From NCBI GenBank assembly GCA_946186915.1, contig CAMHOY010000014.1:1243-65242 (forward strand): DNA of 64,000 bases, read 5' to 3'. Positions 885 to 19,830 of this stretch are shown here, in pieces. The stretch is from an uncultured Bacteroidales bacterium. GTDB lineage: Bacteria; Bacteroidota; Bacteroidia; Bacteroidales; Paludibacteraceae. The notes under the pieces were generated by a model. That model was not told the DNA's origin. It was given only the letters and a program-made list of their open reading frames with translations, and searched no databases. The stretch's first letter is position 1, and the number at the start of each line of letters is the position of its first letter. Position numbers and translations under genes: made by a program.

Positions 885-937
885 GTACGCGCATGCGTAT
901 ATAATAAGGAGAGGCATCCATCCGGGTGCCTCTCTTT
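885..937. repeat. short hairpin-containing repeat, copy 1 (copy 2 at 17952-17996)
   Basis: The block GTACGCG..ATAATAAGGAGAGGCATCCAT(C/T)CGGGT(T)GC(C)TCTCTT is shared by both sites. Confidence 0.6.
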
Positions 938-940: not shown

Positions 941-1033
941 TTCCACCGAGCGACGACCGAGACACAAAACGGGCGTTTTTTCGCCCCAAAACGCCCCAAA
1001 ACCACATCCCCAAATTCAATTTCCGCCATAATA

Positions 1034-1065
1034 CTTGCATATGTCCGAAAAAAGTAGTAAATTTG
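1034..1065 (+). promoter_or_regulatory. Bacteroidetes-type promoter for the SLC13 gene
   Basis: -33 cTTG at 1034-1037 and -7 TAAATTTG at 1058-1065, 20 bp apart. It overlaps the 18-bp perfect palindrome AAATTTGCGCGCAAATTT at 1059-1076. Confidence 0.6.
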
Positions 1066-1258
1066 CGCGCAAATTTGTTTCGAAAAAGAAAATCTCGCAT
1101 GAGTTTGCACAAGCTTTTGCAGAGACGGAATTTGAGAAATACCGCGTCATCCAGGACCGTCTGTTTGAGTCGGATTTTGACAAGTTCACTCTGCCGACAT
1201 TGCCTTTTGAAGGAGCGGAAGATTAATGATTACCTGTCTGTAAAATAACGTATAAATA

Positions 1259-2773
1259 ATGGAAGAGTTTGTATTTTGGGGATTTAATCTGCATGCATGG
1301 ATTACTATTGTCACCGTGCTGGCGTTGTTTTCTATCTTGCTATTCACCAAAGTCCGTGCGGATGCAGTGTTTTTAGGTGCGATGGTGATCCTGTACGTCA
1401 CGGGTGTACTGGACGCCAAAGAGGCGTTCTCCGGTCTCAGCCAATCGTCTGTGGTAGTCGTGGGCGTGCTGTTTGTGGTAGTAGCCGGTCTAACCTATAC
1501 CGGTGTGCTGCAATGGATAGTGAAGAACCTGTTAGGTCAGCCCAAACGATGGAGCAATGCAGTCGTAAGGCTCATGTTACCGGTCGCGGGACTGAGTTCG
1601 TTCCTGAGCAATACTACGGTAGTGGCGCTGTTTATCGGGATTGTGAAGATGTGGTCGAAGAAACTTGGAATCGCCCCGTCGAAACTGTTGATTCCGCTTA
1701 GTTACGCCTCGGGAATGGGTGGTGTATGTACGTTGATAGGCACGCCGCCGAACCTGATTATCAGCGGGTTCTATGCCGAGGAGACGGGTATTCAGATGAA
1801 CGTGTTAGCAACAACTATTCCGGGTCTTTTCTGTCTGGCGGTAGGTGTGCTGTCCGTTATCGCCATGCGCCGTCTTTTGCCGGACCGTCAGGGGGTTGAT
1901 GATACGTATGAAGACACGACGGATTATACAGTGGAGATGGTGGTGCCGTCTTCCTGCAAATATATCGGCGAGACATTGGGTTATGCCGGGCTGATCAACG
2001 TAAACGGAGGCCGATTGATCAAGATGCACCATTTCGACGGAGTGGCAGTGCCGATAGATGAGAATGAGTTCATTATGGGCGGTGACAAACTGGTCTTTGC
2101 CGGAAATATCAAAAAGATCATGGAGTTGACCAAGACGTATGGCCTGGTGCCCGGCGACGAGGTGATCCATGTGGGTTTCAAGACGCTACTCTCTGCGCTG
2201 ATCATGATCGTGATGGTGGTACTGTCTGCTACGGGCGTCATGCCGCTGCTGATGAGTGCCTGTCTGGCGGCGTTAGCGATGGTAATCACTCGCTGCTGCA
2301 CACCCAACCAGGCCGTCAAATCCATAGACTGGAGTATTCTAGTCGTTTTCGCAGGCTCCGTAGTATTAGGATTGGCTATTCAGAAAACCGGTATTGCGGA
2401 GCGGATGGCAACTGGAATACTGGATATATGCGGCACGAATCCCATCGTCGTGATGACGGCGGTATGTTTGGTAGCCACTTTTATTACAGAGTTTATCTCC
2501 AATACGGCAGCCGGCGCGATGTTCTTTCCTATCATGTACCATGCAGCCGTCCAATTGGGCTACGAACCGATGACTTTCCTTATTGCCCTGATGATCAGCG
2601 TCAGCAGCAGTTTTGCTACGCCGATAGGCTCGCCGACCCATATGATGGTTTACGGTCCCGGAGGATACCGGTTTACAGACTTTCTGCGGATAGGTTTCTG
2701 GATGAACATTATCATACTTGCGGCGAATATATTCATTACGAATCTTATTTATCCGCTTACTCCGCTTGGGTAA
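1259..2773 (+). CDS. SLC13/DASS-family anion permease with an internal TrkA-C (RCK-C) domain
   Basis: 504 aa and polytopic. It has SNT(T/A) hairpin motifs (FLSNTTVVALF, FISNTAAGAMFFPI) and a soluble central insert resembling TrkA-C. Confidence 0.85.
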   Translation: MEEFVFWGFNLHAWITIVTVLALFSILLFTKVRADAVFLGAMVILYVTGVLDAKEAFSGLSQSSVVVVGVLFVVVAGLTYTGVLQWIVKNLLGQPKRWSNAVVRLMLPVAGLSSFLSNTTVVALFIGIVKMWSKKLGIAPSKLLIPLSYASGMGGVCTLIGTPPNLIISGFYAEETGIQMNVLATTIPGLFCLAVGVLSVIAMRRLLPDRQGVDDTYEDTTDYTVEMVVPSSCKYIGETLGYAGLINVNGGRLIKMHHFDGVAVPIDENEFIMGGDKLVFAGNIKKIMELTKTYGLVPGDEVIHVGFKTLLSALIMIVMVVLSATGVMPLLMSACLAALAMVITRCCTPNQAVKSIDWSILVVFAGSVVLGLAIQKTGIAERMATGILDICGTNPIVVMTAVCLVATFITEFISNTAAGAMFFPIMYHAAVQLGYEPMTFLIALMISVSSSFATPIGSPTHMMVYGPGGYRFTDFLRIGFWMNIIILAANIFITNLIYPLTPLG

Positions 2774-2799
2774 AATAATAACTAAAACAACAAAATACT

Positions 2800-3594
2800 A
2801 TGATGGATTTATTGATTCTTTTTGCGGTGGCGATGGCGGTTTCCGCAGTGGGGTGGAAATACTTTGTGTATTTCTTCAGTCTCGGTTACGGTTATGGCAT
2901 TGCCGCATTGGCAGTGACCATGGGCGTGCTATACCACGCGAATCTCTCGGTGCCGACAATTGCGATGTTGGTGCTGCTGCTGATTTTCGGAATCCGGCTT
3001 GGTACGTATCTTTTGGTGCGCGAACGCAAGGCAGTGGGGTACCGTAAGATTCTGTACGGCGAGGGACATTCGGAGAAGAAGCCTGCCGGCGTGATGATCA
3101 TGATATGGCTGTTCTGCGCGCTGCTGTACGTGGCGCAGGTGAGCCCTGTGGCTTTCCGGCTGGCGAACGGACCGCACGATAGCGAGCTGTGGGCATGGAT
3201 AGGTGCGGCGGTGGTGGCTTGCGGCATCTTGTTAGAGAGCATCAGCGACGCGCAGAAGAGTGCCGCCAAGAAAAAGAACCCGAAGCGGTTTGTGGATACC
3301 GGTCTGTACCGTATCGTCCGCTGCCCGAACTATCTGGGCGAAGTGACCATCTGGACGGGCGCGTTGCTCAGCGCGATTGGCGCAGGGCTGACTTGGTGGC
3401 AGTGGTTGATAGTAGGAATAGGGTACGCAGGTATCGTGTTTGTGATGTTCAGCGGCGCACGCCGGCTGGAGTTGCGTCAGAACGCCGCCTATGGCAATGA
3501 CCCCGAATATCAGGCGTACGTGAAGAAAACGCCTATCCTGATACCGTTCCTGCCTATTTATTCCGTAGCCCAATATGAATGGCTCAAGGCATGA
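2800..3594 (+). CDS. DUF1295 / steroid-5-alpha-reductase-like membrane protein
   Basis: 264 aa and multi-TM, with the C-terminal motif RIVRCPNYLGEVTIW typical of the DUF1295/ICMT-like fold. Confidence 0.8.
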   Translation: MMDLLILFAVAMAVSAVGWKYFVYFFSLGYGYGIAALAVTMGVLYHANLSVPTIAMLVLLLIFGIRLGTYLLVRERKAVGYRKILYGEGHSEKKPAGVMIMIWLFCALLYVAQVSPVAFRLANGPHDSELWAWIGAAVVACGILLESISDAQKSAAKKKNPKRFVDTGLYRIVRCPNYLGEVTIWTGALLSAIGAGLTWWQWLIVGIGYAGIVFVMFSGARRLELRQNAAYGNDPEYQAYVKKTPILIPFLPIYSVAQYEWLKA

Positions 3595-3595
3595 G
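3207..3595 (+). repeat. 389-bp direct repeat, copy 1 (copy 2 at 15662-16050)
   Basis: My manual alignment gives about 25 mismatches and no indels (~94% identity). Homology stops 1-2 nt after the stop codon. Confidence 0.9.
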
Positions 3596-3629
3596 GTTTT
3601 AATGTTTAGGGATTAGTGATTAGAGCAGT

Positions 3630-4880
3630 ATGAAAAGAGAATTGTTTTTCGTAGTGGCAGCGCTATGCACGGTGTGCATGGTGTCATGCAAGCCGGCACC
3701 CAAAGGCGAGATGGCATATCCGCAGGCCGAGTGGAGTGAGGCAGGTGAGATTCTAATGCACACACCCGGTGCGGAACTATTCAACGGAGTGATACATCCT
3801 TCGGCAGGCTTGTTTGAGCATTATTTTGATGTAGAGCAGGCCGCCGCGGAGCACCGCGAGTACATCCGTCTTTTGGAAAAAAACGGAATCCGCGTGCGTA
3901 CGGTTTACGAGATGTTGAATGAAACGGGGATAGATACGCTGCAGGCGTTAGCAGCCAAGGTGCTGAAATACGATATATCCGCCATCCCAGGTGAAGATGC
4001 AGAGGCGTCAGAGGCATACCGGGTACAGACGATTGAAGCGATGAGCCGGGGTGATCTGATCCGCTGTATTTTATTACAACCGACGGTCAAACTCAGCCGC
4101 ACGGACAATAATACCGGCTATGAGGCGCAGTATATCCAGAATCCGCTGATGAACCTCTATTTTACACGCGACCAGAGTATCACGACTCCGCGCGGACATG
4201 TGATTTGCAAGATGAATTCCTCACAGCGTGCGTCTGAGACAGATATCATCGAGGTTTGCTACGATCATTTAGGAGTGGATCCGGTGCTGCGTATAGAAGG
4301 TGAGGGACGGCTGGAGGGCGGCGATTATTTCCCTGCCGGCACCGTCTCGCTCATCGGCTGCGGCATGCGGACGAACCAAGAGGGCATCCGTCAAGTGATG
4401 GAGGCTGACGCGTTCGGACATGACACGGTTGTTGTCGTACGCGACCATAAGTTCTGGCAGATGCAGATGCACCTCGATACGTATTTCAATATCATCGACA
4501 GAAATCTGTGTACGATGGTGCGCAGCCGTCTGGAGGCAAAGCCGGATGAGCCGGAATACGCGACATGCGACATCTATGCCCGTGCAGCTGGAGAGAAGGA
4601 GTATCGCCTCATCACGGAAGATATGCCGTTTGTGGGTTTCCTGCGCGAACGGGGTATGCAGATTATCCCGATAGACCGTGAGGACGAAATGCACTATGCC
4701 AATAATTATCTCACCATTGCGCCACGTCATATCATGGCGGTGGGCGGTCAGAGTGCGGCATTGCAGCAACGGCTTCGCGATGCCGGAGTGAAAGTAGAGT
4801 GGGTGCCGTTGGAAAGCCTGATAGACGGTTACGGCGCCGCGCATTGCATGACGCAAGTAATGAACAGAATGAAACACTGA
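3630..4880 (+). CDS. arginine deiminase-family (amidinotransferase fold) protein with a lipoprotein signal peptide
   Basis: ADI signature blocks are present: FTRD, EGGD, MHLDTYFN and the C-terminal GAAHCMTQ with the catalytic Cys. The N-terminus MKRELFFVVAALCTVCMVSC is a lipobox-type signal. Confidence 0.8.
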   Translation: MKRELFFVVAALCTVCMVSCKPAPKGEMAYPQAEWSEAGEILMHTPGAELFNGVIHPSAGLFEHYFDVEQAAAEHREYIRLLEKNGIRVRTVYEMLNETGIDTLQALAAKVLKYDISAIPGEDAEASEAYRVQTIEAMSRGDLIRCILLQPTVKLSRTDNNTGYEAQYIQNPLMNLYFTRDQSITTPRGHVICKMNSSQRASETDIIEVCYDHLGVDPVLRIEGEGRLEGGDYFPAGTVSLIGCGMRTNQEGIRQVMEADAFGHDTVVVVRDHKFWQMQMHLDTYFNIIDRNLCTMVRSRLEAKPDEPEYATCDIYARAAGEKEYRLITEDMPFVGFLRERGMQIIPIDREDEMHYANNYLTIAPRHIMAVGGQSAALQQRLRDAGVKVEWVPLESLIDGYGAAHCMTQVMNRMKH

Positions 4881-4887
4881 CAGACTG

Positions 4888-4989
4888 ATGGAAGAGTTCA
4901 TTTTTTTTAGGTTTTAACATGCACGCATGGATCACGATAGTGACCGTGCTGGCATTGTTCGGCATTCTGCTGTTTACAAAGGTGCGCAC
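4888..4989 (+). pseudogene. 5' fragment of a second SLC13 permease gene (frameshifted and truncated)
   Basis: ATGGAAGAGTT... aligns with 1259-1363. It encodes ..FNMHAWITIVTVLALFGILLFTKVR against FNLHAWITIVTVLALFSILLFTKVR. A 1-nt indel creates a TAA stop, and homology ends at about 4989. Confidence 0.75.
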
Positions 4990-4990
4990 G

Positions 4991-5205
4991 TATTCCATGT
5001 TTTTATAGCATCGTTCCTGTTGGCGCGGATTGAGGTGCATCGCCGGATCATTGAAAAGCATCATCTGACCGCCCATGCCGTAATTGCTGAGCGGGGTGGA
5101 CATCTCTGTAAATTCAGGCGTTACGTAGATGGTTATGGTACGGAAATCGGGGCTGGCGTTTGTTATCTGCGCCAGCTCGCTGCGACGGATGATCAGGCAA
5201 TCACC
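4991..5205 (-). pseudogene. fragment resembling the N-terminal (non-HTH) half of a Bacteroides AraC-type regulator
   Basis: The reverse frame reads GDCLIIRRSELAQITNASPDFRTITIYVTPEF...LNPRQQERCYKNMEY. There is no HTH domain, a stop lies upstream, and the fragment is truncated at the 4990 junction. Confidence 0.3.
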
Positions 5206-5245
5206 AGCCTGCTTTTCGCCATTTTATTTTTGCTCGTCGGTCGGA

Positions 5246-5603
5246 TTAGCCTATTTCGCCCTTTTGTTGCTTTTGTGCGGATTTGGTGATGGTCTCGTGA
5301 TAGAAATAATTGACCACCACCGGTGGTTCGCCATGCTTGGCACGCACACTGTCATCATTACGCACATAAGGCAGATTCTCCGTCTCGCAGAAGGTGCGCA
5401 ACTGACCGTCCAACTCTGTCCAGTACGTGCGGTCTCTTTTTGAGTATATCTGGCGATACAAAGCATCCAATTCCGGGTGGTGTTCGTGCACCCAATTGGA
5501 TGTTGGCATTGTCCACTTGAACCGCAGCACGAATCTCAGCGTCGGTTGTGACGACGGTTTGCGACAAAGCAATCTGCACTCCTGCACACAGTAGAAATCT
5601 CAT
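5246..5603 (-). pseudogene. small ORF immediately after the NRPS stop, apparently frameshifted (possibly NTF2/SnoaL-like)
   Basis: A TAAATG junction links it to the NRPS. MRFLLCAGVQIALSQTVVTTDAEIRAAVQVDNANIQ (frame 1) continues as WVHEHHPELDALYRQIY...YFYHETI in a second frame, shifting near 5500. Confidence 0.3.
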
Positions 5604-8600
5604 TTACTCATCAAAGAATCCTAATTGGCTGATTGCGATTAGCATCCGATTGACATACGCGCTATCCGGTGCAGACCAATGGAAGCCCAAACGGAGCAGG
5701 ACTGCAGAGGTATAGCGGTTATCACGCTCGATAGTAACCGCCTTCTGTCCATGCGTCATGTCCTGGTATGCCAAGAGAGCGGACATGAGGCTGGCTTTCT
5801 TCGGGTCTTTGCTGGCCTCGAGAATCGCTTGCTGGAACTCGTCTTCCTCCACGTAACGGATGGACTTGCCTATCTTCTCAAAGCCCGCGAGGATATCGCC
5901 CAAGAGGTCGGTATGGTTATTGAAGGGTTGGAAGACGTTACACTCCTTCGGCGTAGAGGCAAGCAGTACGACTGCCTTTGCGGTCTCGTTCACCGGTGAG
6001 AACTCTGCCGGCGAGTCGTATTCGTCTATCGGACAGCAGCCAAGGGTTGAGAATACTTTGAGTCGTCCCATGTAACTATTCGTCTGGAAGTTCGCCTGGA
6101 ACTCACCGTCGTAGCTACGCGCAGCGAGGTTACCCACACGCATGATCTTAGCGTTCAGTCCATGACGAGCTACCGCTTCGAGAATGACACGTTCGGCAAG
6201 GAACTTCGACCGCATATAGCGGTTATCGAGGAACTGACCGAAATAGAGGAGACGCTCCGAGAGTTCGGGCACCGCTTTTCCATCGCCACGATCGACCCAA
6301 ATCTCTCCGACCGAAGTGGTGGATATATGTACGAGTCGTGTACCGGTCTTGAGACAGAACTCCACGCATCGCTCCGCGCCGCCGATATTCACCTGTTCGA
6401 TGTCGTCGGTCTTGGAGAAGTGCTTGACGTTCGCGGCGCAGTTAAAGACTGTCTGAATACTAATATCGGATAACTGATTACTGAAATCGTTTGTCACATC
6501 GCCGTTAACGACGAAGAGGCGGGAACCGAAGAGTTCATCAAAACGTCGGTCGAAATAGTAGAAGAGCAAGTTACGCAGACGTCGTTGCGCATCGTGCTGG
6601 TCTTTTCCGCGGACAAGACACGTGATGGTCTTGGCATCCGAGTCAATGAGTTCGCGCAAGACGTGGATACCGAGATAACCGGTAGCACCGGTGAGCAGTA
6701 CATTGCCTAACTCCTGACGCTCTCCGCGCAGGAACGTATTGAGATTATTGCGTTGCAGAATCGCATCAATGCCCGTATAATCGAAGGCTGCTGCTTCTTG
6801 GTCATTGGCCGTTTGTTCATCCGTGTCACCGGACAGGAACTGCGCCAAGAGACGCGGCGTCGGATGGGTGAAGATATCACCGTAAGCGACATGCTTGCCG
6901 GCTTTGTCCGCTTCGATGATGACACGGGTGACCATAAGAGATGTACCGCCGAGTTCGAAGAAGTTATCCGTAGCACCTATCTTATCCTGATTGAGGATGG
7001 AGGCGAATATGTCACAGAAGAGTTTCTCGTTGTCATTAGCCGGAGCTACGTAGTCGCGGTCGGTGTCGGTGAGTTGCGGAGCCGGAAGGGCACGTTTGTT
7101 CACTTTCTGGTTCTGGTTCAGTGGGATGACATCAATCTGCATGGTCGAAGCCGGTACCATGTACGGCGGTTTGCGATCACGGATGAAGGCATTGAGTGCC
7201 TGGATGTCAATCTTGCTGTCGCTGACGATATATGCCGCGATGAACTTACCTCCGTTGGGGTAATCAAAGGCCTGTACGGTAGCATCGTTGATGCCCGGGA
7301 ACTCACGGATGACCGCCTCAACCTCTTTGAGTTCGATACGGAAACCGCGGATCTTTACCTGACCATCCTGCCGTCCGACAAACTGAATATTGCTGTCTGC
7401 GAGATAGCGAACGACGTCACCGGTGCGGTAACAGCGAAGACCATTCCAGTCGATATAGGTCTCGGCGGTCTTGTCGGGACGGTTGAGGTAACCTCGGCTG
7501 ACTTGTGGACCGGAGACGAGCAGCTCGCCTGTAGCACCTACAGGCACACGGTGCAGGTCCTTATCAACGATGAAGAGCCGGAAGTTATCCAGCGGTTTGC
7601 CGATAGGGATATTCTTCTCCTGCTCGTGTATCGGATAGGTCGTCGTGAAGATCGTACACTCGGTCGGACCGTACGCGTTATGAAGCAGGTAGTTAGCCGG
7701 CGGCGCGATAGTCGCGAGTTTTTCTCCTCCCACAGACAAGTGCTTGAGGGAATGATTGTCGCAGTTCTGGGCAAACTGATAGCCGACCTGGGTCGTCATG
7801 AACGAATGGGTGATACCTTCGGCTTCGAAATAATGATTGAGATCCGGCAAGTTGAGTCGGATATCCTCGCCGATGATATAGACTGCTGCACCGCAAGTGA
7901 GCGCCGGGTACATATCCATCATGTTCGCATCGAAACCGTAGGAAGCGTACGCCGCCACTTTGTCTCCGGCATGGAGGTCATAATAGCGATGGTACCAATG
8001 ACAGAACGCCACAAGGTTGCGGTGCTCGAGTTGGCAGCCTTTGGGTACGCCGGTGGAGCCGGAGGTATAAAGGAGGATGAATAAATCCTGTGGATTTATA
8101 AGACCGCTATCGCTCAAAGTAGAAAGACCGCTATCGCTCAAAGTAGAAAGATCTTTTGTCAGGAGGACGGGGCCGGAGTATTCATTGACGATGGGACGGA
8201 GGTCGGTATCGGCGATGAGAAGGGACGCGTTGGCATCCTTCATCATGAAGTTCAGACGCTCTGCCGGATAAGACGGATCGAGCGGCTGGTACGCACAACC
8301 GGCTTTGAGGGCAGCCAAGGAAGCGACCACCATCCATTCGGAACGGTTGATGAGGATGGAAACGACTCGTTCGGATTTAATATCCGAACATTGGATATTG
8401 GTGATTGGTGATTGGTGATTGAGCACCTCATATATCTTCGCAGCGATGGTGTCCGTGCGTTCATCCACCTCTTTGTAGGTGAGGCGGACATCGTGATACA
8501 CGACCGCGAGATTATCGGGCGTCTCAGCCGCTTGCTTACGGAAGAGCGAGACGATGGTCTGGGTGTCGTCATAAGGCACCTCCGTCTGATTGAACGAGTC

Positions 8601-11519: not shown

Positions 11520-11520
11520 A

Positions 11521-11823
11521 TTATTCTATTGTAAAAAGGTTCTGGAAACCGCTCATGCGGAAGATGTCGCTCACGTCCTCATTGAGGTGGGTGATGCGAA
11601 TGGAGCCGCCTTTCGCCTCGGATTCTCGTTTGAGTTGCATGAAGAACCGCAAGCCGGCTGAAGAGATGTACTCGAGTTGCTCACAATCAATCTCCAGCGC
11701 TTTGTCGGCAAGTGCCAACACCTGATTCAGATCCTCTACTTGGGTTGTAGTAACTGTCGTGTCAAGTTCGCCGATAAAGCAAACACGCGTCTCTTGGTCA
11801 TTCGGAATAATGCTGATTTTCAT
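11521..11823 (-). CDS. STAS-domain anti-sigma-factor antagonist (SpoIIAA/RsbV-like)
   Basis: 100 aa with CEQLEYISSAGLRFF, the phosphorylatable-Ser context. Its stop lies 1 nt from the NRPS start codon. Confidence 0.85.
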   Translation of the reverse strand: MKISIIPNDQETRVCFIGELDTTVTTTQVEDLNQVLALADKALEIDCEQLEYISSAGLRFFMQLKRESEAKGGSIRITHLNEDVSDIFRMSGFQNLFTIE

Positions 11824-11856
11824 ATTGTATAAAAGTTTAATGTCGCTGCGCGACGT

Positions 11857-13872
11857 TTAAGAGTTTAAAAGTTTAATGAGCGTGAGGACGTTTTTATTCT
11901 CCTTCCGCTCGTAGTGCAGTTCATCAACGATTTGTCGGATGAGATGGATTCCCATTCCTCCCACCTGGCGTTCACCGGTTGCTTTCTCATTGGGCACATG
12001 CCCCGTGGGGTCAAAAGCGATGCCGTCGTCCTCCAACTGAATACTGACCGCTGATAACTGACAGCTAAGCTCTATTCTTATCTCCGTCGCTTGCGAATAA
12101 TGAAGAATATTCACGACAGCTTCTTCGGCCGCCACTTCGAGTTTTTTGAGTCCTTTCTTGTCCATGCCGTTGCATAATCCAAAGGTATGGATTGCCTTTC
12201 GCAGGACAGGCCACTGGTCTTTGTGGCAAGGCACGCGCAGCGTCACAGGCTGGACGGGGCTTGTCTTTCGAATCGTCATGAGGGTGATATCATCCGTTGG
12301 TTCGGCTTTTCCCATAAAAGCTTTAATAGCGCCGTACATATCCTCCTTGTTCGCTACGATCTCCGACCATCGCTTCATTCCTAACATCTCACGGGCGCTG
12401 TTCCGCGCTTCGGTCACGCCATCGGTGTAAAGAACGATTTTCTCTCCTTCGCCAATCATGCAGCCTTGCTCCACAAACGAATACCGGCCGTCATATCCCA
12501 ACGGGATATTCGGTTCAACGGTGAGGGGTGAGGGGTTACCGGTTACGGGTGAGGAGATGATCGGCGCACAGTGTCCGGCATTGCAGAAGAGCAGTTCGCC
12601 TGTAGGGATACACAGACTTCCCACAAAAGCCGTCACGAAAGTAAGGGAGGGGTTGTTCTCGCTAAGGACGGTATTGATTTCTTCCATGATCTGTTTGGGT
12701 GAGGTTGCTCTCACACCAGCTGCGCGGAAGAGGTTCACTGCAGCACTCATGAACATAGCGGCCGGAACGCCCTTGCCGCTCACATCTCCGATGATGAACC
12801 AGAGGACGTCTCCTTCGCGATGGAAGTCAAAGAAGTCGCCTCCTACTTCGCGCATCGGGACAAGGAAGGTATGGAGTTCAATATCTCCGTTCGCTTGGGC
12901 TTTGATCCGTTCCTTGTCGTCTTTCAGGATTCCCATTTGGATATCATGGGCGATTTGCAGTTCGTGCGACACCACCTCCCGTTCCGTCTCCAGACGGGCG
13001 TTCTCTTGTTCATCCCGTGTCATACGACGGATCAACAGGCCCACCACGAGGATACCTAACACGAACACGCCCAAAGGCAACAAGGTGCCCAAACGAAGAC
13101 TATCGATAACATGGCTGCGCGGAACGGCAGTGACCATTCGGATATTTATCGGCTGAAGAGTCTTGCGGGAAACGATCCATGAGCCATCGTCCAACTCTCC
13201 ATCTTTCGGCGCTCCGTCACTGGCGGCAAGGAGGGTCCCGTTGGAACTATAGAGCATACACTCTGCCTCCTCGAATGGCCGGAAATGGTCCAGCATATTG
13301 TGTATCCATTTCAAACTGAAATCAATACCTATGACGCAAATCAGATCGCCCTTCTCGTCCAGCACGTCATTCGAATAGGTATAGATCGGTTCGTCAAAAT
13401 CTTCATCTATATACGGGGTGCTCCAATAGCCTGCGTTGTTTTGCACGGCTCCTTTATACCACTCGCGTTCAAAATAATCATGCTCGGCATCCCCAAAAGG
13501 GCAGGAGACTATCGAATCCTTCGTACGATAGGAAGTCAAGCAGAACCACTTCCCTTTTTCCGGATAATAATACGGCGGGAAAGCTACATAGCAGGAATAA
13601 AAATTCGGATACCGTTTGATGAGTTCGTTGGTCTTGCTGTACAAATTCTCCGGGTGCGTCAGGTTCCTCTTCACCTCTTCTATCAGCTGAGCGTTGGCAT
13701 CCAGCGCGTCGTACAGTTCAAAACGCAGTTTCTCTTGGGCGATCTGCATCTCGAGTTCCATCTTCTCCTGAAAACGGAACCGCGACCTGCTATAGGACAC
13801 GTACGACTGTACTCCCATTCCGAGAAGAAGGAAAAGGGCCGCTAAAATATGTATGTACTTAAATCGTTTCAT
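11857..13872 (-). CDS. membrane sensor fusion: Cache-like periplasmic domain, TM, PP2C/SpoIIE phosphatase and RsbW-like HATPase kinase
   Basis: There is an N-terminal TM, a ~230-aa extracytoplasmic region and a second TM. The PP2C motifs are GGDFFDF...IIGDVSGKGVPAAMFMS...TDGVTEA...DDITL. The C-terminal kinase motifs are EEAVVNILHYS...EDDGIAFDP...GGMGIHLIR. Confidence 0.85.
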   Translation of the reverse strand: MKRFKYIHILAALFLLLGMGVQSYVSYSRSRFRFQEKMELEMQIAQEKLRFELYDALDANAQLIEEVKRNLTHPENLYSKTNELIKRYPNFYSCYVAFPPYYYPEKGKWFCLTSYRTKDSIVSCPFGDAEHDYFEREWYKGAVQNNAGYWSTPYIDEDFDEPIYTYSNDVLDEKGDLICVIGIDFSLKWIHNMLDHFRPFEEAECMLYSSNGTLLAASDGAPKDGELDDGSWIVSRKTLQPINIRMVTAVPRSHVIDSLRLGTLLPLGVFVLGILVVGLLIRRMTRDEQENARLETEREVVSHELQIAHDIQMGILKDDKERIKAQANGDIELHTFLVPMREVGGDFFDFHREGDVLWFIIGDVSGKGVPAAMFMSAAVNLFRAAGVRATSPKQIMEEINTVLSENNPSLTFVTAFVGSLCIPTGELLFCNAGHCAPIISSPVTGNPSPLTVEPNIPLGYDGRYSFVEQGCMIGEGEKIVLYTDGVTEARNSAREMLGMKRWSEIVANKEDMYGAIKAFMGKAEPTDDITLMTIRKTSPVQPVTLRVPCHKDQWPVLRKAIHTFGLCNGMDKKGLKKLEVAAEEAVVNILHYSQATEIRIELSCQLSAVSIQLEDDGIAFDPTGHVPNEKATGERQVGGMGIHLIRQIVDELHYERKENKNVLTLIKLLNS

Positions 13873-15233
13873 AAGTTAAAGATACCCAGCCCATTCAGGA
13901 AGATGAGCACGATAGCTATCGGTACGATCCAGCGGAGCGTGAAGATGAATAACGGGCGGAGCCATTGTTTGTACCGTTTCTGGCTGTACGGCACGAGGTC
14001 CTTGTCTTGTAACGGCATGAACCATCCTATGAACAGCGACATGGATAAGGCGCTAAGCGGCATCATGAATGTCGTGACGAGGGTGTCGCTCAAATCGAAA
14101 AGGCTGTGTCCGAAAAGTTTCAAACCGCTCCATACACCGGTCATGGAGAGTACATAGACTGCAACCGTTGCACAAATGACCGCGGTAGCAATCAACACGC
14201 TCTGATGGCGGTTCAGTTTACCATGGCTCAACTCCATGATGCTGACAACAATCACCTCCATCAACGAGATGGTTGAGGTGAGCGCAGCAATGAAGAGCAG
14301 GAGGAAGAAGAACACGCCGCTGATCCAGGCAAACGTCATGTGTTGCAAGACTGCCGGCAGCACGACGAAGACTAATTGCGGACCTTCAGCCGGGTTGAAA
14401 CCGAACGCGAACACCGCCGGAAAGATGATGATTCCCGCCAAGACAGCTACCAATGTGTCGAGGAGAATGACGATGAAGGACGTCTTGGTGGCGTCCTGGT
14501 CCTTCGGCATATAAGCGCCGTAAGTGATCATCAGACCAAGACCGACAGAGAGGCTGAAGAAACACTGACCTGCGGCAGTCATCACCACCGCGGGAGTGAT
14601 TTGTGAGAAATCAGGAGCAAGGAAGAAGCGCAGTCCCGTTCCGCTGCCCTCCAACAGCAGGACGCGGATCACCATCAAGGTCATCATGATGAACAAAAGA
14701 GGCATAAGGATCTTACTCAGCCGCTCGATACCGCTGCTCACTCCGAACCAAAGGATGGCGGCGGTGATAAGAACAGGGATGATGCCGCAAATGAGCATCT
14801 TGAGGGTATTGGAGGTATTGGCCGTAAAATGCGCGAGCAGTTCGTTCGTGCCCATGCCCGCGTACGAGTTGACCGTCGCTTCATACAAATAATCGACACA
14901 CCAGCCTGTCACCACGAAATAAAAGCCGGTGATGACAAACACCGTCAACGCGGACCACCACCCTAACCATTGCCAGTGGTTGTTGCCGCTGATAGCGCGG
15001 AATGCCGAGAAGGTTGATTTGCCCGCTTTTCTGCCTATCAGTATCTCCGTCATCAATAACGGCATACCGAACACGATCACACAAATAAGGTAAACAAGCA
15101 AAAAAGCACCACCGCCATTTTGACCTGCCTCATAAGGGAATTTCCATATATTGCCTAAACCGATAGCACTGCCCGCTGCGGCTAATATGACACCCAATTT
15201 GGAATTAAAACCCGATTTATTTGATTGTTCCAT
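13869..15233 (-). CDS. neurotransmitter:sodium symporter (NSS/SNF) family transporter
   Basis: GLGNIWKFPYEAGQNGGGAFL signature and 11-12 TMs. I moved the start to the ATG at 15233 because the tracked TTG at 15260 lies inside the -7 box. An ATGA overlap links it to the next gene. Confidence 0.9.
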   Translation of the reverse strand: MEQSNKSGFNSKLGVILAAAGSAIGLGNIWKFPYEAGQNGGGAFLLVYLICVIVFGMPLLMTEILIGRKAGKSTFSAFRAISGNNHWQWLGWWSALTVFVITGFYFVVTGWCVDYLYEATVNSYAGMGTNELLAHFTANTSNTLKMLICGIIPVLITAAILWFGVSSGIERLSKILMPLLFIMMTLMVIRVLLLEGSGTGLRFFLAPDFSQITPAVVMTAAGQCFFSLSVGLGLMITYGAYMPKDQDATKTSFIVILLDTLVAVLAGIIIFPAVFAFGFNPAEGPQLVFVVLPAVLQHMTFAWISGVFFFLLLFIAALTSTISLMEVIVVSIMELSHGKLNRHQSVLIATAVICATVAVYVLSMTGVWSGLKLFGHSLFDLSDTLVTTFMMPLSALSMSLFIGWFMPLQDKDLVPYSQKRYKQWLRPLFIFTLRWIVPIAIVLIFLNGLGIFNL

Positions 15234-15257
15234 AAGCTCGTCTCGTGAATTTGCGCG

Positions 15258-15289
15258 CAAAATTACTATTTTTTTTTCATATATGCAAG
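15258..15289 (-). promoter_or_regulatory. promoter of the NSS-PP2C-STAS-NRPS operon
   Basis: On the reverse strand: cTTG, 20 bp, then TAATTTTG. It overlaps the 12-bp palindrome TTTGCGCGCAAA at 15250-15261. Confidence 0.6.
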
Positions 15290-15337
15290 AGTAAATGGCA
15301 GAAATCGTTCAGAATCATCCGGTAGCGTTGCATTGGA

Positions 15338-15409
15338 TTAGTTTGTTACTTTCTTTACCAGCGTGAGGATGTTCTTGCCCTCCACGCGTTCGTAGCGGAT
15401 GATTCCGCT
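15338..15409 (-). pseudogene. C-terminal remnant of another PP2C/RsbW-type gene
   Basis: The reverse frame reads GIIRYERVEGKNILTLVKKVTN*, which aligns with the C-terminus DELHYERKENKNVLTLIKLLNS* of the 671-aa fusion protein. A stop lies upstream. Confidence 0.4.
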
Positions 15410-15661
15410 ATTTTACTCAAATTCTCCGTGCATTTCTGCCACGGGTACATATAACTTAACTTTTGTCAGAAGGTGGCACAGTTTTTGTGGTATATTTTAT
15501 AGTGTCAATCCGCCAAACTTGGCGGATACTTTCAGGCCCTCTTCCTCTCGTTTATGTTATACGAACGACGTGCTAATGACGCGGTAACCACCCGGTTATC
15601 ACGCGCTAATCACGCCCTTTTGGATGCTATTAACCCTTATAAAACCTCGATTTTAGGTCGA

Positions 15662-16049
15662 GGCGGTTGTGGCTTGCGGCATATTGCTGGAGAGCATCAG
15701 CGACGCGCAGAAGAGTGCCGCCAAGAAAAAGAACCCGAAGCGGTTTGTGGATACCGGTCTGTACCGTGTCGTCCGCTGCCCGAACTACCTGGGCGAAGTG
15801 ACCATCTGGACGGGCGCGTTGCTCAGCGCGATAGGTGCAGGGCTGACCTGGTGGCAGTGGCTGATAGTGGGAATAGGGTACGCAGGCATTGTGTTTGTGA
15901 TGTTCAGCGGCGCCCGCCGACTGGAGTTGCGTCAGAACGCCGCCTATGGCAATGACCCCGAATATCAGGCATACGTGAAGAAGACTCCGATTCTGATTCC
16001 GTTGCTACCTATTTATTCCGTAGCAAAATATGAATGGCTCAAGGCATGA
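15662..16049 (+). pseudogene. 3' fragment (126 codons) of a second DUF1295 gene; direct-repeat copy 2
   Basis: About 94% nt identity to 3207-3595, with only 3 aa differences. There is no 5' half. The hairpin CCTCGA-ttttag-GTCGAGG sits at the junction (15639-15659). Confidence 0.85.
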
Positions 16050-16067
16050 GTGTTATTTTATCATATA

Positions 16068-16742
16068 CTATATTTCGCTGGTGACAGGATTGTTTTTCAG
16101 TTTTGAAAGGCACCATGCGAATCCGCGGGCAAGGCGGAGATGGGGAGTGACGAAATGCCCGCCCTGCTCCATGACAAGCGTGCAGTGGTCGGCACCCAAC
16201 TGTTGCCGGAGCAAGTCATACTCCGTCCGGACGCAGTCTCCTACTACAGCAAAACGCCGGTTACGGGTTTTCTCTTCTTTGTCGCCCAGGCTGAGATAGA
16301 CCTTCCCGGTACGCACAGGATGAAGAGCGGCATACTCGTTCCAGCTATTCACCCAAAGGGACGGAGAGCAGGCGGCAACTGCGGCAAAAAGGTCTGATTG
16401 CGTGGCTGCCCATAACGCGAACAAACCGGCTAATGAGTACCCGCCGAGAATAATAGGCAGGCTGCCGTATTCATTCCGCAAATAAGGGATGAGGGACTCC
16501 GTTAAATAATTCAATGTTTCTCCGGCATGCAGACCAACCTCGGCATCTTTGGATACAAATGGATCCGCCCACGGCATCAGTTCTTTTTCCCAGTCGCGGA
16601 CAGGAACGCCGACAAAGACAAAAGGCGCGCATACGGCTTTGCGAATAGCACTTGTCTCATCATTGAGAGTCTCGTTCTCATGCTCGCCAGTCAACTGAAT
16701 AAGCAGTACTTGCGGTTGGGCGTCTGCGTACAGGATGCTCAT
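16068..16742 (-). CDS. alpha/beta-hydrolase, putative esterase family
   Basis: 224 aa with the nucleophile elbow GGYSLAGL and a distal His (GGHF). Confidence 0.7.
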
Positions 16743-17311
16743 CGTATTTCAATCATTTTAATTACTTTAGCCGGCACGCCGCCGACGATGCTATTAGCAG
16801 GCACATCTTTGGTGACTACGGCTCCGGCAGCAACGATGGCATTCTCGCCGATGGTCACACCCTGCAAAACAGTCACATTCGCCCCGAGCCACACTCGCTT
16901 GCCGATGTGTATCGGTTTGGCGGTCATACCTGCTCGCTGCGCCGGATCGGGAAGATGATTGAGCGTGCAGAGCGTAGCGTTATGCCCGATAAGCGCATCG
17001 TCATCAATGAAGATACCGCCTTGGTCTTGGAACTTACAGCCCATGTTGATGAACACCCGTTCGCCGATATGCGTGTTCTTGCCGCAGTCGGTATAGAACG
17101 GCGGAAACATACCGAACGACTCCGGCACATCTATCGCCCATAACTCACTTAGCAACCGTCGCAGTTCTTCGGGCGTGTGGTACGAGCCGTTGATCTCGGC
17201 GGTGATACGCAGGGCTTCCTGAGAATACTTATGGAACTCCATATGCAACTCCGAGCCGCCGATAATCGGCTCGTCCGTTGCCATTCGTTCACGAAATTGG
17301 TCTATTGTCAT
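16739..17311 (-). CDS. sugar O-acetyltransferase (Maa/LacA hexapeptide-repeat family)
   Basis: It has the Maa-type N-terminal helix followed by left-handed beta-helix hexapeptide repeats ([31 protein letters not shown]). A 4-nt overlap links it to the esterase. Confidence 0.85.
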
Positions 17312-17322
17312 GCTTATTTCTT

Positions 17323-17951: not shown

Positions 17952-17996
17952 GTACGCGTAATAATAAGGAGAGGCATCCATTCGGGTTGCTCTCTT
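17952..17996. repeat. short hairpin-containing repeat, copy 2
   Basis: It matches 885-937. The surrounding 117-bp segment is flanked by the 10-bp direct repeat ATAAGGTGCT (17873-17882 and 18000-18009). Confidence 0.6.
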
Positions 17997-19816: not shown

Positions 19817-19830
19817 GGTCCTTGGACCCT

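What the first reader, a model, noticed from the sequence alone, without database searches (positions are those of the whole stretch)
3207..16050. 12-kb insertion bracketed by 389-bp direct repeats of the DUF1295 3' end, with gene debris at both junctions
**Seen in the sequence.**
- 3207-3595 and 15662-16050 align without indels, with about 25 mismatches (~94% identity). There are only 3 aa changes, so the divergence is mostly synonymous.
- Copy 1 is the end of an intact gene. Copy 2 has no 5' half.
- Between the copies lie the ADI-like gene, a frameshifted 5' stub of a second SLC13 gene (4888-4989), an AraC-like fragment, a broken small ORF, the NRPS operon and an RsbW-like C-terminal remnant (15338-15409). 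There is also about 250 bp of hairpin-rich non-coding DNA (ATCCGCCAA-act-TTGGCGGAT at 15508-15528).

**Inference.** The segment arrived by homology-driven (Campbell-type single crossover, or homology-facilitated) integration. The donor would be a related lineage that also had SLC13-DUF1295 synteny. Recombination between the repeats could also remove the segment again.

**Alternative.** An old tandem duplication of SLC13-DUF1295 was later overwritten by the island.
Basis: partly seen in the sequence, partly recalled or inferred. Interest (0 to 1): 0.65.

Follow-up and report, generated by a model that had tools for sequence, protein, structure and literature searches.

The report
Truncated gene copy at island junction
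The 389-bp repeat is real, but it is scar tissue from a later microhomology-mediated rearrangement beside an NRPS gene block that was already in place in a rumen Paludibacteraceae genome, so this is ordinary genome plasticity, not a new integration mechanism.

Summary
Window 3207-3595 and 15662-16050 match without gaps, with 25 mismatches, 21 at third codon positions, and 3 amino-acid changes.

The main interpretation, that a crossover between the repeats integrated the segment, is contradicted.
- Sister genomes (RGIG4295 contig JAFTZQ010000031, a 567-kb scaffold and others) are collinear with window 1822-15672. They carry the NRPS block but have no copy 2 and no esterase.
- They diverge from the window exactly after the 11 nt GGCGGTTGTGG (15662-15672). 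These 11 nt are also DUF1295 nt 408-418, so this is a microhomology junction.
- Empty sites exist, but they read DUF1295|OMP (L031) and ADI|OMP (L012), not DUF1295|esterase.
- DUF1295-ADI(-SLC13) is an ancestral operon found in 8 relatives. The SLC13 stub is that operon's third gene.
- Copy 2 keeps 7 nt of a DUF1295-ADI junction at its right end. It is therefore a remnant of a second DUF1295-ADI locus, cut on both sides.
- Copy 2 shows no decay. Strain differences in it are all synonymous and partly match copy 1, which points to gene conversion.

Whether the junction arose by deletion within the chromosome or by imported DNA is unresolved. Interest is low to moderate.

The parts
9..851 (+). 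3' end of the nifJ-like pyruvate:ferredoxin oxidoreductase gene; conserved left anchor of the variable region
   Evidence: Pfam TPP_enzyme_C. It is 96% aa identical to nifJ in L014 and L031.
945..1091 (+). Promoter-type region that in relatives lies directly upstream of DUF1295. It contains the palindrome AATTTGCGCGCAAATT and the 42-nt element 1034-1075, which recurs inverted at 15248-15289.
   Evidence: Matches L019, L023, L025, L029 and L076 immediately upstream of their DUF1295 genes. Inverted repeat I1. The motif occurs only at these two places in the window.
1068..1223 (+). C-terminal remnant (about 52 aa) of a RhuM-family gene
   Evidence: tblastn with L026 c17 (Pfam Virulence_RhuM): 79% over aa 293-344. 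94.8% nt identity to L026 9741-9874.
1259..2773 (+). Intact SLC13/CitMHS transporter gene, SLC13(a)
   Evidence: Pfam CitMHS and Na_sulph_symp. 99% identical to L012 and 98-100% to RGIG4295.
2800..3594 (+). Intact DUF1295 gene. Repeat copy 1 is its 3' end (3207-3595). Positions 2943-3435 are a recombination tract relative to L012.
   Evidence: Pfam DUF1295. About 40 mismatches to L012 fall within 2943-3435, against about 1% divergence in the flanking genes. Allelic variants at 3187-3267 appear in four runs.
3630..4880 (+). ADI-like (arginine deiminase family) gene; ancestral downstream partner of DUF1295
   Evidence: Pfam ADI. DUF1295-ADI adjacency is seen in L012, L014, L017, L018, L022, L026, L030 and L047.
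4888..5005 (+). Frameshifted 5' stub (39 codons) of a second SLC13 gene. It is the third gene of the ancestral DUF1295-ADI-SLC13 operon.
   Evidence: Collinear with L018 and L026, which have the full-length gene at the same 7-nt spacing after ADI. Carries a 1-nt insertion relative to the L014 stub.
4982..5212 (-). Internal fragment of an AraC-family regulator gene
   Evidence: 93.5% nt identity to L028 12543-12773. The intact L028 gene hits HTH_18, HTH_AraC and AraC_binding.
5213..5527 (-). Intergenic DNA plus the 3' remnant (about 83-93 aa) of a radical-SAM gene
   Evidence: 85.6% nt identity to L028 12953-13236. The intact L028 gene hits Radical_SAM.
5604..11519 (-). NRPS with domain order A-T-C-A-T-R (1971 aa)
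   Evidence: Pfam AMP-binding, PP-binding, Condensation and NAD_binding_4. The operon module 5598/5603-15234/15288 recurs in other contexts: L178, L183, L188 and, reordered, L177.
11521..11823 (-). STAS-domain (anti-sigma antagonist-like) gene
   Evidence: Pfam STAS.
11857..13872 (-). Cache sensor, SpoIIE phosphatase and HATPase_c_2 fusion gene
   Evidence: Pfam.
13869..15233 (-). SNF/NSS-family sodium symporter gene (454 aa as called in public assemblies)
   Evidence: Pfam SNF. P0001 is 454 aa and 100% identical.
15338..15400 (-). 3' remnant of another SpoIIE-HATPase_c_2 gene
   Evidence: 11 of 21 aa identical to the C-terminus of the operon's own protein. 82.6% nt over 46 nt to the 3' end of the L183 homologue.
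15396..15661 (.). 266-nt non-coding right flank of the NRPS block, with a hairpin at 15508-15527
   Evidence: 100% identical in 8 same-species contigs. 99-100% identical to RGIG4295-type contigs.
15662..15672 (+). GGCGGTTGTGG: 11-nt microhomology at the junction. It is shared by the block's flank in sister genomes and by DUF1295 nt 408-418.
   Evidence: The alignment of the window, L190, L189 and copy 1 diverges immediately after these 11 nt. T at the position equivalent to 3213 is the commonest DUF1295 allele, in 20 of 30 sequences. An RNA-library contig also leaves the window at 15672.
15662..16056 (+). Repeat copy 2: the 3' 389 nt of a second DUF1295 gene plus 7 nt of a compact DUF1295-ADI spacer, up to the AT of the ADI start codon
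   Evidence: Homology to L014, L017, L018, L022, L026, L030 and L047 runs to 16056. Junction sequences TGAGTGTTAT|G.
16057..16110 (.). Second junction zone: an 11-nt spacer and the last 14 codons of the esterase gene. It has no counterpart in the closest esterase relative.
   Evidence: L089 (96.6% nt) matches window 17123-16110 only. Its esterase tail and downstream sequence differ.
16068..16742 (-). Esterase-family gene, convergent with copy 2
   Evidence: Pfam Esterase. It is rare: only L089 (94% aa) and L090 (64%) are close among 313 metagenome hits.
16739..17311 (-). Hexapeptide-repeat acetyltransferase gene. The border at 17311 is a strain-variable insertion point.
   Evidence: Pfam Hexapep. 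L169 and L170 carry about 3 kb of extra genes between it and the DUF6512 gene.

Best explanation
The window comes from a rumen Paludibacteraceae genome. In this group the stretch between nifJ and a LuxR/hemerythrin gene (window 23165-24061) is a hot spot for rearrangement. DUF1295 is the one conserved gene there, and the genes on both sides of it differ from species to species.

**Step 1 (shown).** Copy 1 belongs to an ancestral operon, DUF1295-ADI-SLC13.

**Step 2 (shown by comparison).** About 11 kb came to lie between ADI and a convergent outer-membrane-protein (OMP) gene. This block holds the SLC13 stub, AraC and radical-SAM debris, a mobile NRPS-STAS-SpoIIE/HATPase-SNF operon, a HATPase remnant and about 430 nt of non-coding flank. 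That is the state still seen in the RGIG4295-type sister lineage. It has only one DUF1295 sequence at this locus.

**Step 3 (junction shown, mechanism inferred).** In the window's lineage the right flank of the block was fused at an 11-nt microhomology (GGCGGTTGTGG) to position 408 of a second DUF1295 gene. This removed that gene's 5' half and the OMP side. The second gene was once followed by its own ADI gene, because 7 nt of that compact junction survive. A second break between 16057 and 16110 joined it to the esterase gene. The fusion was either a RecA-independent deletion to a downstream resident DUF1295-ADI locus, or import of DNA from a relative by homology-facilitated illegitimate recombination.

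**Step 4 (shown).** Since then copy 2 has not decayed. It exchanges short patches with functional DUF1295 alleles by gene conversion.

The 389-bp direct repeats are therefore a by-product, not the integration substrate. They remain a possible substrate for RecA-mediated loss of ADI plus the NRPS operon. No island-free subpopulation was seen.
For: **The block preceded copy 2.**
- L189-L192 (including RGIG4295 contig JAFTZQ010000031) align with window 1822-15672. They have no second DUF1295 match and no esterase.
- The shared backbone is 98-100% identical in SLC13(a), in 4572-5572 and in 15322-15672.

**The junction.**
- The window and L190/L189 are identical through GGCGGTTGTGG and then diverge. 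The same 11 nt match DUF1295 copy 1 and the commonest DUF1295 allele.

**Empty sites.**
- L031: the DUF1295 stop is followed 46 nt later by the OMP stop (12,234 bp absent).
- L012: the ADI stop is followed about 140 nt later by the OMP 3' end (10,964 bp absent).

**Ancestral operon.**
- DUF1295-ADI occurs in 8 relatives and DUF1295-ADI-SLC13 in L018 and L026. The stub is collinear with them.

**Right end of copy 2.**
- It keeps TGAGTGTTAT of the compact DUF1295-ADI junction.
- L089 homology starts only at 16110.

**A second DUF1295 locus is plausible.**
- RGIG4295 and RUG11067 each have two full copies.
- L013 and L016 show OMP...DUF1295-HlyD-RND-...-LuxR-c14. The window has LuxR and c14 7-10 kb right of copy 2.

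**No decay in copy 2.**
- It has 2 unique nucleotides and 1 conservative unique residue.

**Gene conversion.**
- Same-species contigs (L169-L171) have 0-3 mismatches per 500 nt outside a few tracts (parts of the NRPS, SpoIIE/SNF in L171, copy 2, the Hex gene) but 8-16 mismatches per 500 nt around copy 2.
- 12 of 12 differences inside copy 2 are at codon position 3.
- 8 of the 12 equal the copy-1 state, including a cluster of 5 in 16 nt in L171.

**The NRPS operon moves as a module.**
- It is found in other contexts in L178, L183, L188 and L177.

**Junctions are real.** They recur in independent assemblies.
Against: - The direction of change is inferred by parsimony: the OMP adjacency is shared by three arrangements, and a truncated gene must be derived. 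It was not observed directly.
- No genome with a full-length DUF1295 next to this esterase, and none with a full second copy downstream of the NRPS block on one contig, was recovered. The source of copy 2 is therefore unidentified.
- RGIG4295's own second DUF1295 locus (L017) has different neighbours from the window's right side.
- Pervasive allele mosaicism blurs any dating.
- The contig-level patchiness read as gene conversion could in part be assembler mixing of the two repeats.
- The depth evidence against an island-free subpopulation comes from contig word depth only.
Confidence: 0.7

Rival explanations
1. First reader's main model. A circular donor molecule carrying a DUF1295 3' fragment, ADI, the SLC13 stub and the NRPS operon integrated by a single homologous crossover inside the 389-bp homology of a resident nifJ-SLC13-DUF1295-esterase locus, creating both repeats at once.
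For: - Direct repeats of a gene's 3' end bracket about 12 kb.
- Copy 2 is as diverged as an orthologue from another species.
- Relatives with DUF1295-ADI-SLC13 synteny exist as potential donors.
Against: - Carriers of the same interior, with a 98-100% identical backbone, lack copy 2 and the esterase, and end at the OMP gene.
- The left end of copy 2 is an 11-nt microhomology with sequence that continues differently in those carriers.
- The predicted empty site was not found. The closest esterase relative has no DUF1295 beside it.
- L012 shares SLC13-DUF1295-ADI at 99% but without the block.
Confidence: 0.05
2. First reader's alternative. A tandem duplicate of an SLC13-DUF1295 unit lay downstream of ADI. 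The NRPS block overwrote its middle in one event, leaving the SLC13 5' stub and the DUF1295 3' end as the two edges.
For: - The stub and copy 2 are in the right order and orientation to be the two ends of one SLC13-DUF1295 unit.
- Gene orders in the genus are circularly permuted: DUF1295-ADI-SLC13 against SLC13-DUF1295-ADI. That pattern is typical of tandem duplication followed by loss.
Against: - In the sister lineage the stub and the whole block are present without any DUF1295 fragment, so the two edges were not made together.
- The stub sits at the native 7-nt spacing after ADI, as in L018 and L026. It is explained by the ancestral operon alone.
- Copy 2 carries the remnant of an ADI start, not of an SLC13 end, on its right. 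On its left it has an illegitimate joint.
Confidence: 0.08
3. The window's arrangement is ancestral. The RGIG4295-type lineage later replaced copy 2 and the esterase side with the OMP side, using the same 11-nt site.
For: - The junction is formally symmetrical: both forms share sequence up to 15672.
- Recombination is rampant at this locus.
Against: - The OMP gene is the right-hand neighbour in three independent arrangements: L031, L012 and the RGIG4295 type. In each the homology starts at the same point, the OMP stop codon.
- The flank in RGIG4295 continues with an imperfect repeat of the same motif (GAGGCGGTTGTGGG / GAGGCGGTTGCGGGG), as native sequence would.
- A 5'-truncated gene cannot be an original state.
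Confidence: 0.08
4. Copy 2 is a functional short gene (126-aa ORF, 15669-16049, GTG start) kept by selection. That would explain why it is intact.
For: - The ORF is open and gene callers call it.
- Strain differences inside it are all synonymous.
- Many 126-aa DUF1295 entries exist in the protein collection.
- RNA-library contigs cover it.
Against: - The 126-aa entries I inspected are gene-calling artefacts of a conserved internal Met in full-length or frameshifted genes.
- The synonymous-only pattern is equally expected if variants are imported by conversion from functional copies.
- I saw no match to the Bacteroidetes -33/-7 promoter consensus upstream by eye. scan_promoters_terminators was not run on this stretch.
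- The RNA contigs are unstranded. Most extend into full-length DUF1295 sequence of other organisms, or are contiguous with the convergent esterase gene.
- The junction is young relative to the 98-100% identical sister backbone.
Confidence: 0.05

Closest known systems
Microhomology-mediated illegitimate recombination, including homology-facilitated illegitimate recombination (HFIR) in naturally transformable bacteria. Reported as joints of 3-10 bp in S. pneumoniae, A. baylyi and P. stutzeri, as summarised in PMC6382021; original papers by de Vries & Wackernagel 2002 and Prudhomme et al. 2002 are as cited there.
   Same: A short GC-rich microhomology (11 nt) lies exactly at the joint between unrelated sequences. 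One partner is cut inside a gene. The uninterrupted versions of both partners exist in relatives.
   Different: No transformation or homologous anchor has been shown here, and a simple intrachromosomal deletion gives the same joint. 11 nt is at or just above the reported 3-10 bp range. Natural competence of these bacteria is unknown.
Chromosomal hot spots or regions of genome plasticity flanked by conserved core genes (general concept; my own knowledge)
   Same: The anchors are conserved (nifJ, DUF1295, the OMP gene, LuxR/c14). Gene content between them is unrelated across at least 25 species-level genomes. There are many gene remnants and strain-level indels.
   Different: The variable content is mostly ordinary transport and metabolic genes plus one NRPS operon. 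No integrase, transposase or tRNA gene is associated with this block in the window.
Campbell-type integration of a circular molecule by one homologous crossover, as in suicide-plasmid integrants (my own knowledge)
   Same: The end product looks alike: direct repeats of the homologous segment bracketing the intervening DNA, which can be lost again by recombination between the repeats.
   Different: Carriers of the intervening DNA without the second repeat exist. One repeat end is an illegitimate joint. The expected empty site is absent.
Intrachromosomal (ectopic) gene conversion between a gene and its pseudogene or partial copy (my own knowledge)
   Same: Short clustered patches of copy 2 carry the state of copy 1 in some strains. 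All differences are synonymous variants already segregating in functional alleles.
   Different: This was inferred from assembled contigs only. The tract lengths and the direction of conversion have not been measured.
AusA-type dimodular NRPS with a terminal reductase (S. aureus aureusimine/phevalin synthetase; PMC12153313), for the cargo and not for the repeat
   Same: Domain order A-T-C-A-T-R in one polypeptide of about 2000 aa.
   Different: It is co-transcribed here with a partner-switching set (STAS and Cache-SpoIIE-HATPase_c_2) and an NSS-family symporter. The product and substrate specificity were not examined.

Membership tests
Campbell-type (single homologous crossover) integrant | Every carrier of the inserted DNA carries both copies of the homologous segment, one at each end | tested here: not met
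   L189-L192 carry window 1822-15672 but only one DUF1295 sequence.
Campbell-type (single homologous crossover) integrant | The empty site equals the outer flanks joined through a single copy of the repeat (here nifJ-SLC13-DUF1295-esterase) | tested here: not met
   The empty sites found are DUF1295|OMP (L031) and ADI|OMP (L012). The closest esterase contig, L089, has no DUF1295. Sampling is limited to public assemblies.
Campbell-type (single homologous crossover) integrant | Both ends of each repeat are ends of homology, not illegitimate joints with third-party sequence | tested here: not met
   The left end of copy 2 overlaps by 11 nt with flank sequence that continues differently in sister genomes.
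Integrase-borne genomic island with att repeats | A tyrosine or serine recombinase gene inside or next to the island | tested here: not met
   Pfam on every large ORF between 3596 and 15661 gives ADI, NRPS, STAS, SpoIIE/HATPase and SNF only. The debris is AraC and radical SAM. Small ORFs were not scanned.
Integrase-borne genomic island with att repeats | Short, near-identical direct repeats (att core) at both ends, often at a tRNA or gene 3' end | tested here: not met
   The repeats are 389 bp and 6.4% diverged. No Rfam family, and therefore no tRNA, reached its gathering score in 1-30000. find_trnas was not run.
Microhomology-mediated illegitimate junction (deletion or HFIR) | A few to about ten shared nucleotides exactly at the joint, with both parental sequences continuing differently | tested here: met
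   GGCGGTTGTGG is shared by the flank (L189, L190) and DUF1295 nt 408-418. Divergence is immediate on both sides.
Microhomology-mediated illegitimate junction (deletion or HFIR) | For HFIR specifically: a homologous anchor on the other side of the imported DNA, and a foreign origin for that DNA | not testable with these tools
   No donor or recipient genome with the window's right-hand genes could be retrieved.
Region of genome plasticity (hot spot) | Conserved anchors with unrelated gene content between them across related genomes | tested here: met
   Gene-order table for 30 loci: DUF1295 is conserved at 94-98% aa, and its neighbours differ in nearly every species.
Ectopic gene conversion between the repeats | Clustered differences between strains that match the other copy, in otherwise near-identical strains | tested here: met
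   L171 has 5 sites in 16 nt (15983-15998) that all equal copy 1. There are 8-16 mismatches per 500 nt at copy 2 against 0-1 in the flanks. Caveat: this rests on assembled contigs.
AusA-like dimodular reductase-terminated NRPS (cargo) | Domain order A-T-C-A-T-R | tested here: met
   Pfam domain positions in the 1971-aa protein.
AusA-like dimodular reductase-terminated NRPS (cargo) | Product is a dipeptide aldehyde or pyrazinone | not tested
   No specificity prediction or chemistry was done.

The most novel reading that the evidence does not exclude
The truncated DUF1295 copy may not be mere scar tissue. It could be maintained by conversion and/or selection as a homology arm. That would let the 12.4-kb ADI-NRPS segment be lost and regained by RecA recombination within rumen populations. 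More broadly, DUF1295 may serve in this genus as a dedicated recombination anchor around which whole gene cassettes are exchanged with junctions at gene boundaries.
Probability: 0.06. Interest if true: 0.6.

Novelty: new member of a known kind. Interest (0 to 1): 0.27.

Why it matters
**A cautionary case.** A textbook-looking pair of direct repeats around a biosynthetic island turns out not to record the island's integration. Comparative loci show three successive states: empty, filled, and filled plus rearranged. The informative joint comes down to 11 nt.

**For rumen microbiology.**
- An AusA-like NRPS operon, linked to partner-switching regulators and an NSS transporter, moves as a module among Paludibacteraceae.
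- It sits in a hot spot where alleles are swapped at sub-gene scale.

**For annotation.** It explains several pseudogene fragments and a spurious 126-aa 'steroid 5-alpha reductase family' ORF.

It does not open a new mechanism.

Tried and rejected
1. **Recurrent 126-aa short form of DUF1295.** The protein search returned many 126-aa entries. The two groups I inspected were artefacts. One was a full-length gene called from an internal Met (L184). The other was a frameshifted gene split into 105 and 126 aa (L185-L187). Rejected.
2. **Esterase as the resident neighbour of DUF1295.** A metagenome scan with the esterase gave only one close relative, L089. It has a different esterase tail and no DUF1295.
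3. **Structured RNA or tRNA target at the junctions.** Rfam at gathering thresholds found nothing in 1-30000.
4. **Island-free subpopulation or deletion joint.** Logan contigs of four DNA runs show similar depth on the island and its flanks, and no joint skipping 12,455 nt. Contigs break at the repeats, so the power is low.
5. **Expression of copy 2.** RNA-library contigs are unstranded and mostly derive from full-length DUF1295 genes of other organisms. Inconclusive.
6. **Locating the donor allele of copy 2.** No species representative is closer than 93.6%. Segment-wise nearest neighbours change along the gene.
7. **L169's copy 2 looking only 85% similar to copy 1.** This was a run of N in that scaffold, not divergence.
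8. **SNF-based look-ups (P0011, P0012, P0016, P0031, P0034).** These showed other contexts for the operon or for SNF alone, but not the window's right junction.

Full report
**1. The observation**

Window 3207-3595 and 15662-16050 align over 389 columns with no gaps and 25 mismatches (93.6% identity).
- 21 mismatches fall on codon position 3, 4 on position 1 and none on position 2.
- The two translations differ at 3 of 129 residues.
- Identity collapses immediately outside the repeat: 12-20% to the left and about 30-40% to the right.

Copy 1 is the 3' end of an intact 264-aa DUF1295 gene (2800-3594). Copy 2 has no 5' half.

- ADI-like gene at 3630-4880.
- Frameshifted SLC13 stub at 4888-5005, with T8 instead of T7.
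- AraC fragment at 4982-5212 and a radical-SAM 3' remnant at 5213-5496. I recognised both by matching intact genes in locus L028.
- Minus-strand operon of NRPS (A-T-C-A-T-R), STAS, Cache-SpoIIE-HATPase_c_2 and SNF.
- HATPase_c_2 C-terminal remnant at about 15338-15400.
- 266 nt of non-coding DNA with a hairpin.

Both junctions of copy 2 recur in independent assemblies from several samples (L003, L169-L175). This is not a misassembly.

**2. Organism and neighbourhood**

A scan of species-representative genomes with the DUF1295 protein returned 80 loci. The closest are rumen and gut Paludibacteraceae/Bacteroidales MAGs at 94-98% aa identity.

I built a gene-order table for 30 of these loci (Pfam labels).
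- DUF1295 is conserved, but the genes on both sides differ in almost every species. Neighbours include SLC13, ADI, GH43, a Na/Pi cotransporter, a PepSY-like gene, GtrA, SBF, RhuM and an RND efflux pump.
- Recurrent anchors are nifJ on the left (L014, L021, L027, L031) and HlyD-RND-...-LuxR/hemerythrin-c14 on the right (L013, L016).
- The window has the last two at 23158-24093 and from 25935.

The region is a hot spot for rearrangement.

**3. What lies just right of copy 1 is ancestral**

DUF1295-ADI adjacency occurs in L012, L014, L017, L018, L022, L026, L030 and L047. L018 and L026 have the full operon DUF1295-ADI-SLC13.
- The window's stub is collinear with that third gene and sits at the same 7-nt spacing after ADI.
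- So 3596-5005 is the old context of copy 1, not imported cargo.

L012 (RUG11067) is 99% identical to the window across SLC13(a) and ADI. Two things stand out.
- It has about 40 mismatches confined to DUF1295 positions 2943-3435, which is a recombination tract.
- It loses homology at 4882, just after the ADI stop.

Logan contigs of four runs carry part of the L012-type allele at 3187-3267. DUF1295 alleles are therefore mosaic even within the species.

**4. The NRPS operon is a module**

Homology to other carriers spans only window 5598/5603 to 15234/15288.
- L178 carries it next to a resolvase and a DUF3987 gene.
- L183 and L188 carry it in other contexts.
- L177 has a reordered version.

**5. 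The decisive comparison**

A look-up of a SpoIIE-HATPase homologue returned RGIG4295 contig JAFTZQ010000031 (L190), a 567-kb scaffold (L189) and two more contigs (L191, L192).

All four are collinear with window 1822-15672. The shared stretch runs SLC13(a), DUF1295, ADI, stub, debris, NRPS operon, HATPase remnant and the 266-nt flank.

Identity along it is mosaic.
- 98-100% in SLC13(a), in 4572-5572 and in 15322-15672.
- 60-88% in the 5' part of ADI, in SpoIIE and in SNF.

This means a very recent shared backbone with imported alleles.

These contigs contain no second DUF1295 sequence and no esterase.
- The alignment shows identity through ...CCTCGATTTTAGGTCGA GGCGGTTGTGG.
- The window then continues CTTGCGGCAT..., which is DUF1295.
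- The sister lineage continues GATTGAGGCGGTTGCGGGG..., then 167 nt, then the stop codon of a convergent OMP gene (CarboxypepD_reg/OMP_b-brl_3).

The 11 nt GGCGGTTGTGG (15662-15672) are also DUF1295 nt 408-418. T at the position equivalent to 3213 is the commonest allele, in 20 of 30 sequences. The left end of copy 2 is therefore a microhomology joint. An 11-nt overlap is far beyond chance, at roughly 4^-11.

An RNA-library contig also leaves the window exactly at 15672 with a variant of the sister-type continuation.

**6. Empty sites**

- In L031 (RGIG5934) the DUF1295 stop is followed after 46 nt by the OMP stop codon, and then by about 8 kb collinear with the right side of L189. Relative to L031, 12,234 bp are inserted in the RGIG4295 type.
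- In L012 the ADI stop is followed after about 140 nt by the same OMP 3' end. Relative to L012, 10,964 bp are inserted.

The right boundary, the OMP stop codon, is the same in all three arrangements. The order of states is most simply:
1. DUF1295(-ADI)|OMP.
2. DUF1295-ADI-[stub, debris, NRPS operon, flank]|OMP.
3. The window, in which the flank is fused to the interior of another DUF1295 and the OMP side is gone.

**7. The right end of copy 2**

Against loci with the compact DUF1295-ADI junction (TGAGTGTTATG...), copy 2 matches through 16056, up to the AT of the ADI start codon.
- Copy 1 uses a different, 35-nt spacer.
- Copy 2 therefore came from a DUF1295 gene that had its own ADI behind it.
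- A second break lies between 16057 and 16110.

The closest esterase relative, L089, is 96.6% nt identical to window 17123-16110 and then differs in the esterase tail and downstream. The window's tail (LSKLKNN...) resembles tails of other esterase alleles. This end may therefore be a homologous exchange within the esterase gene.

**8. State of copy 2**

Compared with 29 orthologues, copy 2 has 2 unique nucleotides and one conservative unique residue (I to V).
- Its K and L states are the common ones.
- The Q in copy 1 is the oddity.
- There is no stop codon, no indel and no excess of non-synonymous change.

This fits a young truncation, consistent with the 98-100% identical sister backbone.

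Same-species contigs (L169-L171) have 0-3 mismatches per 500 nt outside a few tracts. The divergent tracts are parts of the NRPS gene, the SpoIIE/SNF region in L171 (20 mismatches in one 500-nt bin), copy 2 (8-16 mismatches per 500 nt) and the hexapeptide gene.
- Inside copy 2, 12 of 12 strain differences are at codon position 3.
- 8 of the 12 equal the copy-1 state, including 5 sites within 16 nt in L171 (also visible).

I read this as ectopic gene conversion from functional DUF1295 alleles. The caveat is that assemblers can mix repeats.

**9. Mechanism**

*Shown:*
- The NRPS-bearing block was in place before copy 2.
- The left joint of copy 2 is an 11-nt microhomology.
- The right end of copy 2 is a second break.

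*Inferred:* the event was one of two kinds.
- **(a) Deletion within the chromosome.** The flank was joined to a downstream, directly oriented DUF1295-ADI locus. This is plausible for two reasons. RGIG4295 and RUG11067 each have two full copies. L013 shows OMP...DUF1295...LuxR-c14 in the same order as the window.
- **(b) Replacement of the right side by DNA from a relative.** One end would be joined illegitimately, as in homology-facilitated illegitimate recombination, which is described with 3-10-bp joints (PMC6382021).

I cannot choose between them. I would put it at roughly 55:45 in favour of (a).

*Consequence:* the two repeats are a substrate for RecA-dependent loss of ADI plus the NRPS operon.
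- Depth across the block equals the flanks in four runs, and no 12,455-nt skip was reported.
- Contig data have little power here.

**10. Rivals**

- **Campbell-type integration** fails on three defining features (see the membership table).
- **A tandem SLC13-DUF1295 unit overwritten by the island** fails because the stub and island exist without the DUF1295 fragment.
- **The window's arrangement as ancestral** is unparsimonious, given the shared OMP boundary.
- **A functional 126-aa gene** is not supported.

**11. Verdict**

This is a real and well-described repeat whose meaning is different from the one proposed. It is a truncated second DUF1295 allele left by illegitimate recombination at the edge of a pre-existing NRPS block in a recombination hot spot, and it is kept looking fresh by youth and gene conversion. 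It is a new example of known processes. Interest is low to moderate.

Noticed in passing
window 5604-15289 (minus strand): An AusA-like NRPS (A-T-C-A-T-R) is co-oriented with a STAS protein, a Cache-SpoIIE-HATPase_c_2 fusion and an NSS-family symporter under one promoter. The same four-gene module recurs in several Bacteroidales contexts (L178, L183, L188; reordered in L177). A partner-switching regulatory set attached to a small NRPS is unusual.
   Followed up: partly
window 6836-10836: Strains that are otherwise nearly identical (0-3 mismatches per 500 nt) differ by 10-18% inside the NRPS gene (C and second A domain region). This suggests allele or sub-domain swapping by recombination.
   Followed up: partly
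window 8100-8147: A perfect 24-bp tandem duplication (AAGACCGCTATCGCTCAAAGTAGA x2) lies inside the NRPS gene, in frame. One-base gaps relative to the window are listed at 8133 and 8135 in some Logan contigs.
   Followed up: no
window 1034-1075 and 15248-15289: A 42-nt element (86% complementary, inverted) contains a Bacteroidetes-type -33/-7 promoter and the palindrome AATTTGCGCGCAAATT. It sits upstream of SLC13(a) and of the SNF operon. Many unrelated metagenome contigs join at 15257-15288, and depth is raised there, so the element is widespread. Many relatives have a related palindrome (GCACGCAGTTTGCGTGC) upstream of DUF1295.
   Followed up: partly
window 901-936 and 17961-17996: A 36-nt hairpin-containing element (ATAATAAGGAGAGGCATCC...GCCTCTCTT) is repeated at 92% identity downstream of nifJ and downstream of the DUF6512 gene. 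Copies also occur in L019, L021, L023 and L027 near DUF1295. It is probably a shared terminator.
   Followed up: no
window 17311-17323; L169 5019-7932, L170 4115-7992: There is a strain-level indel between the hexapeptide acetyltransferase gene and the DUF6512 gene. L169 and L170 carry about 3 kb of extra genes there (YjbR, transglutaminase-core, and Fic/MarR or an Asp-protease protein).
   Followed up: no
window 18191-23057: A second Cache-SpoIIE phosphatase (without HATPase_c_2) lies next to a stand-alone AMP-binding enzyme and a 470-486-aa protein without Pfam hits. It may be a second, partial cluster related to the NRPS operon.
   Followed up: no
L185 4525-5251, L186, L187: In another Bacteroidales lineage the DUF1295 gene is split by a frameshift into 105-aa and 126-aa ORFs. 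The split is identical in contigs from three samples.
   Followed up: partly
L018/L026 versus window, L012, L014: The three-gene operon occurs in circularly permuted orders in the genus: DUF1295-ADI-SLC13 against SLC13-DUF1295-ADI. In the window a RhuM 3' remnant precedes it. This hints at an older tandem duplication and loss, independent of copy 2.
   Followed up: partly
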